Origin: Escherichia coli
Lineage (GTDB): Bacteria; Pseudomonadota; Gammaproteobacteria; Enterobacterales; Enterobacteriaceae
Reading direction: 5' to 3' (one strand)
Length of the DNA: 64,000 bases
NCBI RefSeq assembly: GCF_003334405.1
Contig: NZ_QOWM01000005.1
In this document: piece after piece, positions 6,001 through 42,000 of the stretch
How the letters are laid out: the number at the start of each line of letters is the position of its first letter
Position numbering within the stretch: the stretch's first letter is position 1
Made by a program: the position numbers

Positions 6001-9000
6001 GGTGGGTAAATCGCGCCCCAGTCTGCCAGAGCGCATCGACAATGTGCTGGTCTGCCCGAACAGCAACTGTATCAGCCATGCCGAACCGGTTTCTTCCAGC
6101 TTTGCCGTGCGAAAACGCGCCAATGACATCGCGCTCAAATGCAAATACTGTGAAAAAGAGTTTTCCCATAATGTGGTGCTGGCCAATTAATTGCGGTTGG
6201 TAATAAAAGTCTGGCTCCCTATAATGAGCCAGACTTTTTACCGCTGTAATAAAGGAGAAATCATGAGCAAAACTATCGCGACGGAAAATGCACCGGCAGC
6301 TATCGGTCCTTACGTACAGGGCGTTGATCTGGGCAATATGATCATCACCTCCGGTCAGATCCCGGTAAATCCGAAAACGGGTGAAGTACCGGCAGACGTC
6401 GCTGCACAGGCACGTCAGTCGCTGGATAACGTAAAAGCGATCGTCGAAGCCGCTGGCCTGAAAGTGGGCGACATCGTTAAAACCACCGTGTTTGTGAAAG
6501 ATCTGAACGACTTCGCTACCGTTAATGCTACCTACGAAGCCTTCTTCACCGAACACAACGCCACCTTCCCGGCACGTTCTTGCGTTGAAGTCGCCCGTCT
6601 GCCGAAAGACGTGAAGATTGAGATCGAAGCGATCGCTGTTCGTCGCTAATCTTGATGGAAATCCGGGCTATCATGCCCGGATTAAGTCTGATGACAAACG
6701 CAAAATCGCCTGATGCGCTACGCTTATCAGGCCTACGTGATTCCTGCAATTTATTGAATTTGTTGGCCGGATAAGGCATTTACGCCGCATCCGGCATGAA
6801 CAAAACTCACTTTGTCTGCAATCTGAATCCAGGCCACCATGCCCAGTTGATTCTTTATTGCCAGCCGTAACGACGGCTATAAAATCCTTTCACCAACTGG
6901 GTTAACGTCATATACCCTGCCAAAATCGCAACCAGCCACGGGAAATAGCTTAACGGCAGCGCCTGCAGCTGCAGATAACTGGCCAGCGGTGAAAACGGCA
7001 ATGCGATCCCGACAATCATCACGATCACGGTCATGATCATTAACGGCCACGATGCACAGCTCTGAATAAACGGCACACGGCGGGTGCGGATCATATGCAC
7101 AATCAGCGTTTGCGACAGTAAGCCCACCACAAACCATCCCGACTGGAACAGCGTTTGCGTTTCCGGCGTGTTGGCATGGAATACCCACCACATCAGGCAA
7201 AACGTCAGAATATCGAAGATCGAGCTGATCGGTCCGAAGAAGATCATAAAGCGCCCCAGATCCGCCGGGTTCCAACGCTGCGGCTTTTGAATTTGCTCGT
7301 CGTCGACGTTATCAAACGGGATCGCCACCTGTGACACATCATACAGCAGGTTCTGAATAAGCAAGTGTAACGGCAACATCGGCAGGAAGGGCAAGAAAGC
7401 ACTCGCCACCAGCACGCTGAACACATTACCGAAGTTGGAGCTCGCCGTCATTTTGATGTATTTCAGCATGTTGGCGAAAGTGCGACGTCCTTCAATAACC
7501 CCCTCTTCCAGCACCATCAGGCTTTTTTCCAGCAGGATGATATCAGCCGCTTCACGGGCAATATCTACCGCGCCGTCCACAGAAATGCCGATATCCGCAG
7601 CGCGTAAGGCGGGCGCATCATTAATACCATCGCCCATAAAGCCAACCACATGCCCTTCGCGCTTCAGTAAGGTCACAATGCGTTCTTTATGCATCGGCGT
7701 CAGACGAGCAAACAGCGTGGTGCGCTGTGCGAGATTTGCCAGTTCGTCGTCAGATAGCGTTTCAATATCACTACCAATGACCACCTCTCCCGCGTCCAGC
7801 CCCACTTCATGGCACACTTTCGCTGCAACTAACTCACTGTCGCCAGTAAGGATTTTTACGGTAATTCCACTCGCTTTTAATGCCTTCAGTGCCGGAGCAG
7901 TTGTCTCTTTTGGCGGATCAAGGAAAGCAATATATCCTTCGAGGATCAGGTCGGATTCATCCGCCCGCTGGTAATCTCCTTCACGCGCTGGCAGGTATTT
8001 CGTCGCCACCGCAACCACGCGCAGCCCCTGACGATTCAGCGTATCAGTAACCCGCTTAATCTTACGCAGCATGATGTCATCGAGCGGCACAATCTCGCCA
8101 TTGTGACGCACCTGCGAACACACATTGAGGATTTCCTGCAATGCACCTTTGCAAACCAGCTGATGGTGCTCGGTATTTTCTGCCACTACCACCGACATCC
8201 GGCGACGCTCGAAATCAAACGGAATCTCATCGATTTTTTGCCAACGACTGGCCAGCGAGCGCGCTGACTCTTCATCCGTACCTTCGAGCACCGCTGTATC
8301 GAGCAGGTTTTTAAGTCCGGTCTGATAATGACTGTTCAACCACGCGCTATGCAGCACGCGTTCGCTGGTTTTACCGGAGATATCGGTATGATTCTCCAGC
8401 ACAATTTTGTCCTGTGTCAGGGTGCCAGTTTTATCAGTGCACAGAATATCCATTGCGCCAAAGTTCTGAATAGCATCCAGATGTTTGACGATCACTTTCT
8501 GTTTCGACAGCTTTACTGCGCCGCGCGCCAGCGTCGAGGTAACAATCATCGGCAACATTTCCGGCGTTAAGCCTACCGCGACCGAAAGCGCAAACAGTGC
8601 CGCTTCCCACCAGTCGCCTTTGGTGTAACCATTGATTAACAGCACCACCGGAGCCATCACCAGCATAAAGCGAATCAGCAGCATACTGACGCGGCTGATC
8701 CCTTGCTGAAAGGCATTCGGCTCGCTTTCCTGCTCACTAACACGCCCCGCCAGTTGACCAAACCAGGTATTGGCACCTGTAGCAATCACCATTGCTTGTG
8801 CCGTGCCGCTCACCACGGTGGTGCCCATAAAACACAGGGTGTCGCACTCCAGCGGATTGCTGTGCTCCGGCTGGCGAGTGGTAGCTGCTTTTTCTACGGG
8901 CAGAGACTCACCGGTTAACGACGCCTGAGCGACGAACAGATCCCGCGCCTGCAAGATACGTAAATCTGCCGGGATCATATCCCCCGCCGCCAGTTTTATA

Positions 9001-39000: not shown

Positions 39001-42000
39001 ATGGATTTCGATTATTACAAAGACACCGCCACGGAAAAATTCGGACTGGTACGTACGGCAAGCCTGATTAACGATGCCCGCAATGAAGTGAAAAACAGCG
39101 TACTGGTCGATAACGGCGATTTGATTCAGGGGAGTCCGCTGGCCGATTACATATCGGCGAAAGGATTAAAAGCAGGTGATGTTCATCCGGTTTATAAGGC
39201 GCTGAATACGCTGGATTATACGGTCGGTACACTCGGCAATCATGAATTTAACTACGGTCTGGATTACCTGAAAAATGCGTTGGCGGGAGCGAAATTCCCT
39301 TATGTAAATGCCAACGTCATTGACGCCAGAACCAAACAGCCAATGTTTACACCGTATTTAATTAAAGATACCGAAGTGGTCGATAAAGACGGAAAAAAAC
39401 AGACGCTGAAGATTGGCTATATTGGCGTCGTGCCGCCGCAAATCATGGGCTGGGATAAAGCTAATTTATCCGGAAAAGTGACGGTGAATGATATTACCGA
39501 AACCGTGCGCAAATACGTGCCTGAAATGCGCGAGAAAGGTGCCGATGTCGTTGTCGTTCTGGCGCATTCCGGGCTATCTGCCGATCCGTATAAAGTGATG
39601 GCGGAAAACTCAGTTTATTACCTCAGTGAAATTCCTGGCGTTAACGCCATTATGTTTGGCCATGCTCACGCCGTTTTCCCAGGTAAAGATTTTGCTGATA
39701 TCGAAGGGGCTGATATCGCGAAAGGCACGCTGAATGGTGTTCCGGCGGTAATGCCGGGCATGTGGGGCGATCATCTTGGGGTGGTCGACTTACAACTCAG
39801 TAATAACAGCGGTAAATGGCAGGTGACGCAGGCGAAAGCGGAAGCACGGCCGATTTACGACATCGCCAATAAAAAATCCCTCGCGGCGGAAGACAGCAAG
39901 CTGGTAGAAACACTCAAAGCCGATCACGATGCCACACGCCAGTTCGTCAGCAAGCCAATCGGTAAATCCGCCGACAATATGTATAGCTATCTGGCGCTGG
40001 TGCAGGACGATCCGACCGTGCAGGTGGTGAACAACGCGCAAAAAGCGTATGTCGAGCATTACATTCAGGGCGATCCGGATCTGGCAAAACTGCCGGTGCT
40101 TTCAGCTGCTGCACCGTTTAAAGTTGGTGGTCGCAAAAATGATCCGGCAAGCTATGTGGAGGTGGAAAAAGGCCAGTTGACCTTCCGTAATGCCGCCGAT
40201 CTTTATCTCTACCCCAATACGCTGATTGTGGTGAAAGCCAGCGGTAAAGAGGTGAAAGAGTGGCTGGAGTGCTCCGCCGGACAGTTTAACCAGATTGATC
40301 CTGACAACACGAAACCACAGTCACTCATCAACTGGGATGGTTTCCGCACCTATAACTTTGATGTGATTGATGGTGTGAATTATCAGATTGATGTTACCCA
40401 GCCTGCCCGTTATGACGGCGAGTGCCAGATGGTTAATGCCAATGCGGAAAGGATTAAGAACCTGACCTTTAATGGCAAGCCGATTGATCCGAACGCCATG
40501 TTCCTGGTTGCCACCAATAACTATCGCGCTTACGGCGGCAAATTTGCCGGTACGGGCGACAGCCATATCGCTTTTGCTTCACCGGATGAGAACCGCTCGG
40601 TGCTGGCAGCGTGGATTGCTGATGAGTCGAAACGTGCGGGGGAAATTCACCCGGCGGCAGATAACAACTGGCGTTTAGCACCGATAGCTGGCGATAAGAA
40701 ACTGGATATCCGTTTCGAAACCTCTCCATCAGATAAAGCCGCGGCGTTTATTAAAGAGAAAGGGCAATATCCGATGAATAAAGTCGCGACCGATGATATC
40801 GGGTTTGCGATTTATCAGGTGGATTTGAGTAAGTAATACACTTCTTTTTCGGCCTATAAATCATCAACCGCATCCGGCACTTTTGTCGGATGCGATGCTG
40901 GCGCATCTTATCCGCCCTACAAGTCATGAACCGTAGGCCGGATAAGCGCAGCCGGCAGTTATGCCGCACGTTCATCCCGCACCGCCAACACCTCGGGCAA
41001 ATTCAACTCAATCCAGTCCGCCAGTGCAGCAACCTTTTCGCTCACCTGCTCGCCCAGCGGCGTGAGGCTATATTCCACATGCGGCGGCACCACCGGATAC
41101 GCGATACGGTTAAGAAAACCATCCTGTTCTAACGCCTGTAACGACTGCGCAAGCATCTTTTCACTCACCCCACCGATTTTGCGCCGCAGGTCGCTAAAGC
41201 GATGAGTACCTTCGCGTAGCGCCACCAGAATCAACACCCCCCAACGGCTGGTGACGTGTTTCAACACCTCGCGCGACGGGCACTGTTCCGCAAAGAGATT
41301 ACCCTCTTTCAGTTGTTGTGACAGGCTAACCTGACTCATTTCATACTTACCTTTTTGTACGTACTTACTAAAAGTAAGTTTAGGTGTTAGCGTATTTAAA
41401 CACAAGACAAAACGATGGAGACTTCCCATGATCGCTATTACTGGTGCCACTGGCCAACTTGGTCACTATGTTATTAAATCCTTGATGAAAACGGTTCCTG
41501 CCAGCCAAATAGTGGCTATCGTTCGTAATCCGGCAAAAGCCCAGGCACTGACAGCACAAGGCATTACCGTGCGTCAGGCTGACTACGGCGATGAAGCCGC
41601 ACTGACATCTGCACTTCAGGGAGTGGAAAAACTACTGCTGATCTCTTCCAGCGAAGTGGGTCAACGTGCCCCGCAGCATCGTAATGTTATTAATGCCGCA
41701 AAGACGGCTGGCGTGAAATTTATCGCTTATACCAGTCTGCTTCACGCGGATAAATCTCCGCTCGGCCTCGCCGATGAGCACATCGAGACGGAGAAAATGT
41801 TGGCTGATTCTGGCATCGTTTACACCCTGCTGCGCAACGGCTGGTACACCGAAAACTATCTCGCCAGCGCCCCGGCAGCACTGGAGCACGGCGTATTTAT
41901 CGGTGCCGCGGGCGATGGCAAAATTGCCTCGGCAACGCGGGCAGATTATGCGGCAGCTGCGGCACGCGTGATTAGCGAAGCCGGTCACGAAGGCAAGGTT

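What the first reader, a model, noticed from the sequence alone, without database searches (positions are those of the whole stretch)
6700..40950. Six REP/BIME clusters, all in gaps downstream of operon ends
REP-type palindromes occur at about 6700-6800, 16677-16805, 19915-20020, 26175-26265, 35205-35310 and 40850-40950. They are typical of E. coli core chromosome and can act as mRNA stabilisers or terminators. None occurs inside the accessory island or yjgL, consistent with those regions being foreign.
Basis: partly seen in the sequence, partly recalled or inferred. Interest (0 to 1): 0.2.

Follow-up and report, generated by a model that had tools for sequence, protein, structure and literature searches.

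The report
Six ordinary REP/BIME repeat clusters
The six sites are real copies of E. coli's well-known REP/BIME palindromic repeats, present at the same places in K-12, so the finding is ordinary; however, two of them lie inside operons rather than at operon ends.

Summary
Observation confirmed. All six clusters are at the stated coordinates. They hold 11 well-formed REP hairpins and 4 decayed units. A 14-nt REP head motif (≤2 mismatches) hits 12 times against 0.49 expected, and every hit lies in these clusters. All six are orthologous to K-12, with the same units and orientations.

Classification:
- S1 (6707-6796) and S5 (35204-35303) are BIME-1: z1 and y head-to-head around the L linker that carries an IHF-type motif.
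- S2, S3 and S4 are decayed BIME-2 arrays (y/z2).
- S6 is atypical.

Interpretation partly supported. Every cluster lies 3' of a gene, but S2 lies between nrdD and nrdG and S4 between ytfQ and ytfR, which are cistrons of single operons. The lack of REPs in the island and yjgL is true but uninformative. The island has almost no eligible intergenic DNA, yjgL is coding, and 13.5 kb of undisputed core is also REP-free.

Most likely role (inferred): RNA hairpins that define and protect upstream 3' ends and partly attenuate read-through. In support, the ytfQ→ytfR gap is unusually structured in 63 of 75 species, filled by unrelated palindrome families.

Already known; low interest.

The parts
6707..6796 (.). 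S1, BIME-1 between the convergent genes ridA(+) and mgtA(-). z1 REP 6707-6736 (GTAG head on the - strand), L linker 6737-6761, y REP 6762-6796 (head GTTG on the + strand). The two units are head-to-head.
   Evidence: Sequence. Unit folds -13.1 and -19.1 kcal/mol. L-motif core AAATTCAATAAATTGCA matches exactly at 6745-6761(-). Sub-threshold Rfam ES036 hit on the linker. Cluster fold z -3.1 and -2.75. The gap is 238/245 identical to K-12. Gap length is an invariant 205 bp in 9 genomes.
16677..16806 (.). S2, decayed BIME-2 array inside the nrdDG operon (nrdD stop 16654, nrdG ATG 16812). y 16677-16711 (head on -), 14-nt head-to-head linker, z2 16726-16762 (head mutated to CCAG, on +), then internally deleted y and z remnants 16768-16806 that end 5 nt before the nrdG start.
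   Evidence: The gap is 191/197 identical to K-12. Fold of the + (mRNA) strand -56.2 kcal/mol, z -3.95. Sub-threshold naRNA4 hits. Polymorphic at 157/159/184/189 bp, with GTAG intact in 5 of 9 genomes.
19914..20017 (.). S3, BIME-2 between the convergent genes yjgA(+) and mpl(-). Truncated y tail 19914-19933, z2 19934-19971 (head on +), 11-nt tail-to-tail linker, y 19983-20017 (head on -; an exact match to the Y consensus).
   Evidence: Rfam naRNA4 (RF02564) 86.2 bits against a gathering score of 59.5 at 19937-20014(-). Fold z -4.95 and -5.26. The gap is 190/195 identical to K-12. A 68-bp block bounded by the direct repeat TGCCGGATGCGG is absent in SMS-3-5 and CPEC80.
26174..26274 (.). S4, BIME-2 inside the ytfQRT-yjfF operon, which is transcribed on the - strand (ytfQ stop 26284-26286, ytfR ATG ends at 26144). 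z2 26174-26211 (head on +), 12-nt tail-to-tail linker, y 26224-26258 (head on -), z-tail remnant 26259-26274.
   Evidence: Rfam naRNA4 67.3 bits at 26177-26255(-). The gap is 175/179 identical to K-12. Alleles of 139/132/212 bp. Cross-species conservation of a structured gap.
35204..35303 (.). S5, BIME-1 downstream of msrA(+) and 176 nt upstream of paeA(+). y 35204-35238 (head on -; a y/z hybrid stem with two mismatches), L linker 35239-35273, z1 35274-35303 (head on +). The two units are head-to-head.
   Evidence: Exact L-motif core at 35249-35265(+). Rfam ES036 39.3 bits against a gathering score of 37.6 at 35239-35281. Fold z -3.1. The gap is 348/362 identical to K-12. Gap length is an invariant 322 bp in 9 genomes. 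STnc450 (paeA 5' region) follows at 35361-35418.
40844..40958 (.). S6, atypical BIME filling the 122-bp gap between the convergent genes cpdB(+) and ytfH(-). Degenerate unit 40844-40881 (tail only), y/z2-like unit 40884-40920 (head on -), short unit 40933-40958 (head on +) that directly abuts the ytfH stop codon (40959-40961).
   Evidence: The minimum-energy fold pairs neighbouring units, z -6.6 and -4.8. Sub-threshold naRNA4 hits. The third unit exists in three length states across 9 genomes: full, -5 bp (this window) and -11 bp.

Best explanation
These are six resident REP/BIME loci of the E. coli core chromosome. REPs are GTAG-headed imperfect palindromes (types y, z1, z2) whose spread is attributed to the REP-associated tyrosine transposase (TnpA_REP/RAYT), which is encoded elsewhere in the genome.

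Shown here: their identity, type, orientation, gene context, orthology with K-12 and predicted hairpin stability.

Inferred: their main effect is on RNA. Once transcribed as part of the 3' UTR or an intercistronic spacer, the hairpins (or the long y:z inter-unit hairpin) stop 3'→5' exonucleases. This sets a stable 3' end for the upstream cistron. They also partly attenuate read-through, through a Rho-assisted mechanism rather than a U-tract one.

At the two in-operon sites this should give more of the upstream product than the downstream one: YtfQ binding protein over YtfR/T/YjfF, and NrdD over the NrdG activase. At the three convergent sites one cluster serves both incoming transcripts.

The two BIME-1 loci also carry the L linker with an IHF-type site, so they probably double as IHF-binding DNA sites.
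For: Identity:
- Consensus and profile matches far above chance.
- Canonical hairpins with an internal bubble.
- BIME-1 and BIME-2 architectures as defined in PMC3333891.
- Exact L-motif core at S1 and S5 only.
- Rfam BIME-2 model naRNA4 above its gathering score at S3 and S4, and ES036 at S5.
- K-12 has the same units at all six sites.

Context:
- Three convergent and three tandem gaps, none divergent. This matches the genome-wide split of about 60% / 40% / 1%.

RNA role:
- Cluster folds have z -2.75 to -6.6, except S4 at -1.6.
- No T-tract terminators at any cluster.
- REP325 acts as both stabiliser and partly Rho-dependent terminator, and REP-containing tandem pairs show higher upstream/downstream expression ratios.
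- Stable 3' stem-loops, some of them REPs, define steady-state ends of Rho-dependent transcripts after exonuclease trimming.

Niche conservation:
- A ytfQ→ytfR gap of 47-557 nt is present in 76 of 78 species.
- 63 of 75 gaps fold with z<-2, median -3.34, against -0.52 (upstream control) and -0.63 (coding control), Wilcoxon p≈1e-13.
- The gap is filled by E. coli-type REPs, other GTAG-REP pairs, BoxC pairs or plain hairpins.
- Within E. coli, BoxC-containing alleles replace REP units at S2 and S4.
- BIME-1 gap lengths are invariant in 9 genomes.
Against: - No expression, 3'-end or half-life data for these six loci could be retrieved, so every functional step is by analogy.
- Harris et al. report large variance between loci and no general half-life effect of terminal REPs (legend).
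- S4 in this strain is not more stable than its shuffles (z -1.6 for the cluster, -0.5 for the whole gap).
- Several units are decayed or have lost GTAG.
- The S3 z2 block is dispensable in two natural strains.
- The BoxC allele of S2 folds only weakly above background (z -1.4).
- Species in the cross-species test are phylogenetically related, so the p-value overstates independence.
Confidence: 0.75

Rival explanations
1. The clusters are neutral relics of a selfish element. REPs accumulate in 3' gaps only because insertions there are harmless, and these six loci do nothing for the host.
For: - Four of the 15 units are decayed.
- GTAG is lost at the S2 z2 in this strain, K-12 and JNE070796.
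- Indel polymorphism occurs at S2, S3, S4 and S6.
- The S3 z2 block is absent in two strains.
- No general half-life effect of terminal REPs has been found (legend).
Against: - A structured ytfQ→ytfR gap is kept in 63 of 75 species even though the sequence family turns over, and same-locus controls are unstructured.
- BIME-1 loci are length-invariant and 97-98% conserved across 9 genomes.
- REP-containing tandem pairs show biased expression genome-wide.
Confidence: 0.2
2. The clusters act mainly on DNA: IHF binding at the BIME-1 L linkers, DNA gyrase binding and cleavage at the BIME-2 units, and DNA polymerase I binding. In this view they are topological insulators at the ends of transcription units, and the RNA hairpins are incidental.
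For: - Exact L-motif core with an IHF-like ATTCAAnnnnTTG at S1 and S5 (sequence).
- IHF, Pol I and gyrase binding to REP/BIME is cited in PMC3333891.
- The BIME-1 linker is almost invariant across 9 genomes.
Against: - No protein-binding data exist for these loci.
- The cross-species niche at ytfQ|ytfR is filled by plain hairpins with no shared DNA motif, which points to an RNA or structural requirement.
- This rival is not exclusive of the best explanation.
Confidence: 0.15
3. The clusters are genes for trans-acting small RNAs (naRNA4/CssrE-like, ES036/CssrF-like) that work with the protein HU to organise the nucleoid.
For: - Rfam hits above gathering score at S3, S4 and S5.
- naRNA4 is a 77-nt Y-linker-Z2 unit reported to condense DNA together with HU.
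Against: - The Rfam models describe generic BIME units. The described loci are elsewhere: REP325 at yjdM-yjdN, and cssrE/cssrF at yggN/yggL and dacB/yhbZ in Shigella.
- The 2026 re-examination found no nucleoid compaction and no REP-REP contacts.
- No promoter-like sites lie next to the clusters.
Confidence: 0.03
4. The clusters are canonical Rho-independent (intrinsic) terminators.
For: GC-rich hairpins placed just after stop codons.
Against: None of the 40 terminator-like sites found by the scan lies in a cluster. No hairpin there is followed by a T-run. Genuine T-tract terminators in the window sit elsewhere, for example at 28430-28449 and 36839-36861.
Confidence: 0.03

Closest known systems
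E. coli K-12 REP/BIME elements at the orthologous gaps (ridA-mgtA, nrdD-nrdG, yjgA-mpl, ytfQ-ytfR, msrA-paeA, cpdB-ytfH)
   Same: Same units, order and orientation at all six sites. The gaps are 96-98% identical.
   Different: A few SNPs, plus a 1-bp and a 5-bp deletion in or near the third unit of S6. The K-12 REP numbers could not be retrieved because the RefSeq copy held here lists no repeat features.
BIME-1 / RIB-RIP elements (z1 + y around the L linker with an IHF site)
   Same: S1 and S5 each have one z1 and one y head-to-head, a 25-35-nt linker with the conserved core AAATTCAATAWATTGCA, and are single copy at a 3' end.
   Different: The S1 y head is GTTG rather than GTAG. The S5 y stem is a y/z hybrid with two mismatches in this strain. 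IHF binding was not tested.
BIME-2 / REP325 (naRNA4) unit of yjdM-yjdN
   Same: S3 and S4 contain a Y-linker-Z2 unit that passes the Rfam RF02564 gathering score. S4 and S2 are intercistronic in an operon, as REP325 is.
   Different: These loci hold one to one-and-a-half units with decayed partners, not six tandem units. No functional data exist for them.
Intercistronic REPs of binding-protein-dependent transport operons (malE-malF, hisJ-hisQ; Newbury et al. 1987, cited; details from my own knowledge)
   Same: S4 sits directly after the periplasmic binding-protein gene and before the ATPase and permease genes. That is the classic position for REP-mediated differential mRNA stability.
   Different: Not tested experimentally for ytfQRT-yjfF. 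The hairpin stability of the S4 allele in this strain is modest.
BoxC / PIT / TMECO repeats
   Same: They occupy the same gaps in other strains (S2 in SMS-3-5, S4 in CMZE087) and in other genera.
   Different: This is an unrelated sequence family (CCCTCTCCC...GGGAGAGGGTTAGGGTGAGGGG). None is present in this window.

Membership tests
E. coli REP (y/z1/z2 palindromic units) | Conserved GTAG tetranucleotide 5' to the foot of the palindrome | tested here: met
   9 of the 11 well-formed units have GTAG. S1b has GTTG and S2b has CCAG, although S2b is GTAG in 5 of 9 genomes.
E. coli REP (y/z1/z2 palindromic units) | Imperfect palindrome of 30-40 nt with an internal mismatch in the stem | tested here: met
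   11 units of 30-38 nt fold as a 7-bp foot, a 2x2 bubble and an apical stem, at -13 to -22 kcal/mol.
E. coli REP (y/z1/z2 palindromic units) | Sequence match to the y, z1 or z2 consensus | tested here: met
   Chance expectation is 0-0.5 hits.
E. coli REP (y/z1/z2 palindromic units) | Extragenic position, at 3' ends or between tandem genes, and not in divergent promoter gaps | tested here: met
   Three convergent and three tandem gaps, and none of about 11 divergent gaps.
E. coli REP (y/z1/z2 palindromic units) | High copy number dispersed around the genome | tested here: inconclusive
   There are 15 units in this window. This is consistent with dispersal but is not a count.
E. coli REP (y/z1/z2 palindromic units) | Binding and cleavage by TnpA_REP (RAYT) | not testable with these tools
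   The requirement for GTAG and the stem mismatch is taken from PMC3333891. No RAYT gene lies in the window.
BIME-1 | One z1 and one y in inverse orientation, separated by the long L linker, as a single copy | tested here: met
   S1 and S5.
BIME-1 | IHF binding to the L linker | not testable with these tools
   Only the motif ATTCAAnnnnTTG is seen, which is one mismatch from WATCAANNNNTTR (that consensus is from my own knowledge).
BIME-2 | Alternating y and z2 units with short linkers, often in tandem and variable in number between strains | tested here: met
   S2, S3 and S4. Length polymorphism among 9 genomes.
BIME-2 | DNA gyrase binding and cleavage | not testable with these tools
   Cited in PMC3333891.
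Intrinsic (Rho-independent) terminator | GC-rich hairpin immediately followed by a U/T tract | tested here: not met
   No terminator-like site lies in any cluster.
naRNA4 / ES036 sRNA genes (Rfam RF02564, RF02751) | Covariance-model score above the gathering threshold | tested here: met
   S3 86.2 bits, S4 67.3 bits, S5 39.3 bits. S1, S2 and S6 score below threshold.
naRNA4 / ES036 sRNA genes (Rfam RF02564, RF02751) | Same locus as the described RNA (orthology) | tested here: not met
   naRNA4 is REP325 at yjdM-yjdN. cssrE and cssrF are at yggN/yggL and dacB/yhbZ. The hits here are paralogous repeat copies.

The most novel reading that the evidence does not exclude
Under this reading, the intercistronic gap after the binding-protein gene (ytfQ|ytfR, and perhaps nrdD|nrdG) is a selected 'hairpin niche'. 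The host needs some stable stem-loop there, and the niche has been refilled repeatedly by unrelated mobile palindromes: E. coli y/z2 REPs, other GTAG-REP pairs, BoxC/PIT elements and lineage-specific hairpins. This has happened across Proteobacteria and even among E. coli strains. REP retention at such sites would then be domestication by position, not by sequence.
Probability: 0.45. Interest if true: 0.3.

Novelty: already known. Interest (0 to 1): 0.1.

Why it matters
The finding matters little on its own. These are catalogued repeats at their K-12 positions, and their general roles have been discussed since the 1980s.

Three points are useful:
- A correction: REP clusters do not mark operon ends. 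Two of the six here are intercistronic and probably set the expression ratio within the nrdDG and ytfQRT-yjfF operons.
- A caution: the absence of REPs is not usable evidence that a short, gene-dense island is foreign.
- A set of natural alleles that could serve as ready-made experiments on REP function: the single-y allele at S3, the BoxC-for-REP swaps at S2 and S4, and the three length states at S6.

Tried and rejected
- A fuzzy-regex scan with indels timed out. I replaced it with Hamming scans and nhmmer.
- I hoped to read K-12's own REP annotation, but the RefSeq copy held here lists no repeat_region features. I therefore compared sequences directly and could not give REP numbers.
- Canonical intrinsic terminators were rejected, because there is no T-tract at any cluster.
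- The trans-acting naRNA reading was rejected on locus identity and on the 2026 re-examination.
- Liang/Rudd/Deutscher 2015 (REPs within about 15 nt of a stop codon reduce translation through tmRNA) would bear on S6, which abuts the ytfH stop. It is not held, so it remains a lead from memory.
- Boston & Atlung 2003 is not held. Only its title, 'nrdDG operon', is cited, from the reference list of PMC2773459.
- No supplementary tables of REP transcription or 3' ends are held, so there are no locus-specific expression data.
- The 22-nt REP-like stretch in the fbp coding sequence (22104-22125) and the 2-mismatch L-motif hit at 37337-37353 were judged to be chance.
- No BoxC element is present in the window.

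
Full report
**Where the window is**

The window is E. coli chromosome from the K-12 ~95-96 min region, read in reverse orientation. The gene order is yjgL(part)-tabA-bdcRA-yjgH-pyrLBI-ridA | mgtA | treRBC-nrdDG | cybC-tldE | yjgA | mpl | fbp | yjfF-ytfTRQ | ppa | ytfP-tamBA | msrA-paeA ... cpdB | ytfH ... cycA-fklB-ytfB, then the island, then rplI-rpsF, yjfY and ula.

A megablast against K-12 gives four colinear blocks at 97-98.5% identity. Three differences stand out:
- chpSB is replaced by 129 bp at 28168-28297.
- The ytfI region is absent at 37958-37963.
- A 9.4-kb insertion at 47761-57201 takes the place of K-12 yjfZ.

The 21.5-kb stretch that holds four of the clusters is present at ≥80% coverage in 5406 of 5426 complete E. 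coli genomes.

Yes.
- Reading the six sites shows textbook REP sequence.
- The 34-nt Y consensus matches four times with ≤3 mismatches, once exactly at 19984-20017, against none in 100 shuffles.
- The long Z consensus matches at 16726-16761.
- The head motif CTTATCMGGCCTAC (≤2 mismatches) matches 12 times against 0.49 expected. All 12 hits are in the six clusters.
- A profile HMM built from 11 units gives E<0.01 nowhere else, except for a headless 22-nt partial match inside the fbp coding sequence, which I take as chance.
- The general repeat finder sees only two dispersed families in 64 kb, the y and z2 REPs.

**Anatomy**

Written head-first, 11 units fold into the canonical shape: a GTAG head, a 7-bp foot, a 2x2 internal bubble and an apical stem, at -13 to -22 kcal/mol. 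Four further units are decayed. I use the definitions in Ton-Hoang et al. (PMC3333891).

- **S1** (z1 6707-6736, linker, y 6762-6796) and **S5** (y 35204-35238, linker, z1 35274-35303) are BIME-1. Each has one z1 and one y, head-to-head, around the long L linker. The L core AAATTCAATAWATTGCA occurs with zero mismatches only at these two places. It contains ATTCAAnnnnTTG, one mismatch from the IHF consensus (that consensus is from my own knowledge). Rfam ES036 hits the S5 linker above threshold and the S1 linker below it.
- **S3** (truncated y, z2 19934-19971, y 19983-20017) and **S4** (z2 26174-26211, y 26224-26258, z-tail remnant) each contain a tail-to-tail Y-linker-Z2 unit. Both units pass the gathering score of Rfam naRNA4, which is simply a model of such a unit. 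The remnants on the head side show that both are decayed arrays of about 1.5 units.
- **S2** is y (16677-16711), head-to-head with z2 (16726-16762). A second y/z pair follows, reduced by internal deletions, and ends 5 nt before the nrdG start codon.
- **S6** is atypical. It has a tail-only remnant, a unit with y arms and a z2-like apex (40884-40920), and a short unit (40933-40958) that abuts the ytfH stop codon.

As RNA, the clusters fold better than dinucleotide shuffles, with z -2.75 to -6.6. S4 is the exception at z -1.6. In several cases the minimum-energy fold pairs the two inverted units into one long hairpin.

**Comparison with K-12 and other strains**

All six gaps align end-to-end with K-12, with the same units and orientation. 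Identical columns are 238/245, 191/197, 190/195, 175/179 and 348/362 for S1-S5. S6 differs by a 1-bp and a 5-bp deletion.

I aligned the same gaps from seven more genomes chosen down the identity ranking: SMS-3-5, E02, JNE070796, HS-02, CPEC80, O55:H7 RM12579 and CMZE087.

The two BIME-1 gaps never change length (205 and 322 bp) and are 97-98% conserved. The BIME-2 and atypical sites do vary:
- **S2** is 157, 159, 184 or 189 bp. O55:H7 has an extra unit. In SMS-3-5 the BIME is replaced by a segment carrying a BoxC/PIT/TMECO element (identified from PMC4666352). The z2 head is GTAG in five genomes but CCAG in this window, K-12 and JNE070796.
- **S3** is 151-157 bp in seven genomes and 82 bp in two. 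SMS-3-5 and CPEC80 lack exactly the 68 bp bounded by the direct repeat TGCCGGATGCGG.
- **S4** is 139, 132 or 212 bp. CMZE087 has a BoxC-containing segment in place of z2.
- **S6** has three length states in its third unit.

This agrees with the published statement that BIME-2 and atypical loci vary between strains.

Three clusters lie between convergent genes: ridA|mgtA, yjgA|mpl and cpdB|ytfH. Three lie between tandem genes: nrdD>nrdG, ytfQ>ytfR on the minus strand, and msrA>paeA. None lies in a divergent gap. This matches the genome-wide distribution.

However, nrdD-nrdG and ytfQ-ytfR are cistrons of single operons, and neither gap has a promoter-like site. So 'all downstream of operon ends' is wrong for two of the six.

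None of the clusters has a T-tract, so they are not intrinsic terminators.

The statement that no REP lies in the island or yjgL is true but says almost nothing:
- The yjgL part (1-~1745) is coding, and REPs are extragenic. Its 34% GC is the real sign of foreign origin.
- The island is a TetR gene plus an eight-gene operon (an SDR, an isomerase-like protein, a crotonase, a CoA-transferase, a flavoprotein and TRAP DctQMP). Its internal gaps are ≤52 bp.
- By my count, the core part of the window has about 20 gaps of ≥60 bp containing a 3' end, six of them with REPs. The island has at most one such gap.
- By rate alone, about 1.0 cluster would be expected in 9.4 kb, giving P(0)≈0.35.
- 13.5 kb of undisputed core on either side of the island has none either.

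**How it most likely works**

*Shown:* identity, structure, position and conservation.

*Inferred from established work:* when transcribed, REP hairpins block 3'→5' exonucleases and so define and protect the 3' end of the upstream message (Newbury 1987 and Khemici & Carpousis 2004, cited; Dar & Sorek 2018). They can also attenuate transcription in a partly Rho-dependent way. REP325 does both, and REP-containing tandem pairs are biased towards the upstream gene genome-wide.

For S4 the position is the classic one, directly after the periplasmic binding-protein gene of an ABC transporter. I tested this idea across species. A scan of one genome per species with YtfQ returned 80 loci. The results were:
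- In 76 of 78 usable loci, 47-557 nt separate ytfQ from ytfR. Only two Serratia species have about 20 nt.
- 63 of 75 gaps fold with z<-2, with a median of -3.34.
- Same-length controls just upstream of ytfQ and inside its coding sequence give medians of -0.52 and -0.63 (Wilcoxon p≈1e-13). The species are related, so this p-value is only indicative.
- The filling differs by lineage: E. coli-type REPs in E. coli, Citrobacter youngae/werkmanii and Enterobacter asburiae; a different GTAG-REP inverted pair in another Citrobacter; BoxC inverted pairs in E. cloacae, Pseudocitrobacter and Pluralibacter; and plain strong hairpins without U-tracts in Rahnella, Aeromonas, Vibrio and Rhizobiales.

Structure is therefore conserved while sequence turns over, which argues for an RNA-level role at this site. 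By analogy I expect the same at S2, giving more of the reductase NrdD than of its activase NrdG.

Caveats:
- The S4 allele of this very strain is not more stable than its shuffles.
- The BoxC allele of S2 folds only weakly above background.
- No locus-specific expression data were available.

**Rivals**

- The neutral-relic view is supported by the decay and polymorphism. It is opposed by the conserved niche and by the invariance of the BIME-1 sites.
- DNA-level roles (IHF at S1 and S5, gyrase at the BIME-2 sites) are plausible add-ons, but cannot be tested here.
- The trans-acting naRNA/HU model is not supported. The Rfam hits are paralogous repeat copies, and the model has been contradicted for REP325 itself.

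**Verdict**

These are already-known elements at their K-12 positions, so interest is low.

The two corrections are these:
- REPs do not mark operon ends.
- REP absence is not evidence that a short island is foreign.

The modest positive result is that the ytfQ|ytfR gap behaves as a conserved hairpin niche, refilled by different palindrome families.

Noticed in passing
window 6659-6684 and 6825-6850: The S1 BIME-1 is flanked by a direct repeat of a ~25-bp hairpin (AATCCGGGCTATCATGCCCGGATTA). The K-12 allele of the right copy is 21/25 identical, and 0 of 500 shuffles reach that score. The BIME sits almost exactly centred, 57 nt from the ridA stop and 58 nt from the mgtA stop. The origin is unexplained; it could be a duplicated terminator or a footprint of insertion.
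   Followed up: partly
L003:28152-28335 (SMS-3-5, nrdD-nrdG) and L009:18218-18429 (CMZE087, ytfQ-ytfR); also L039, L014, L025: A BoxC/PIT/TMECO element (CCCTCTCCC..GGGAGAGGGTTAGGGTGAGGGG) replaces REP units at two of the six sites in other E. coli strains. The same family fills the ytfQ-ytfR gap in Enterobacter cloacae, Pseudocitrobacter and Pluralibacter. None is present in this window.
   Followed up: partly
window 47761-57201: This is the accessory island. It holds a full-length TetR-family regulator (K-12 keeps only a remnant, the pseudogene ytfA) plus an SDR, an isomerase-like protein, an enoyl-CoA hydratase, a CoA-transferase, an FAD flavoprotein and a TRAP transporter DctQMP. It takes the place of K-12 yjfZ.
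   Followed up: partly
window 917-1204: An 18-bp tandem repeat of at least 11 copies lies inside the yjgL coding sequence. The yjgL part of the window is only 34% GC.
   Followed up: no
window 28168-28297; 37958-37963; 17321-17707: Compared with K-12, the chpSB toxin-antitoxin pair is absent (replaced by 129 bp), the ytfI region is absent (ytfJ and cysQ overlap tail to tail), and cybC (cytochrome b562) is an intact 128-codon ORF rather than a pseudogene. Other strains carry esiB between ppa and ytfP, or a relBE-like pair between cybC and nrdG.
   Followed up: no
window 17708-17889: The cybC-tldE(pmbA) gap is 182 bp here and about the same (176-183 bp) in K-12, E02, JNE070796 and O55:H7. It is only 47-55 bp in HS-02, CPEC80, SMS-3-5 and CMZE087. 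The extra ~130 bp is not REP-like.
   Followed up: no
window 40933-40961: The third S6 unit ends at the base before the ytfH stop codon, so a terminating ribosome would meet the hairpin. From memory, REPs within about 15 nt of a stop codon can lower translation through tmRNA (Liang, Rudd & Deutscher 2015). That paper is not held, so this was not checked.
   Followed up: no
window 9645-9760, 38770-38892, 35361-35418, 58691-58775: Other Rfam matches in the window are the Mg2+ riboswitch/mgtA leader, the ES239 sRNA between cysQ and cpdB, STnc450 upstream of paeA, and the rpsF leader. All are at their expected K-12 positions.
   Followed up: no
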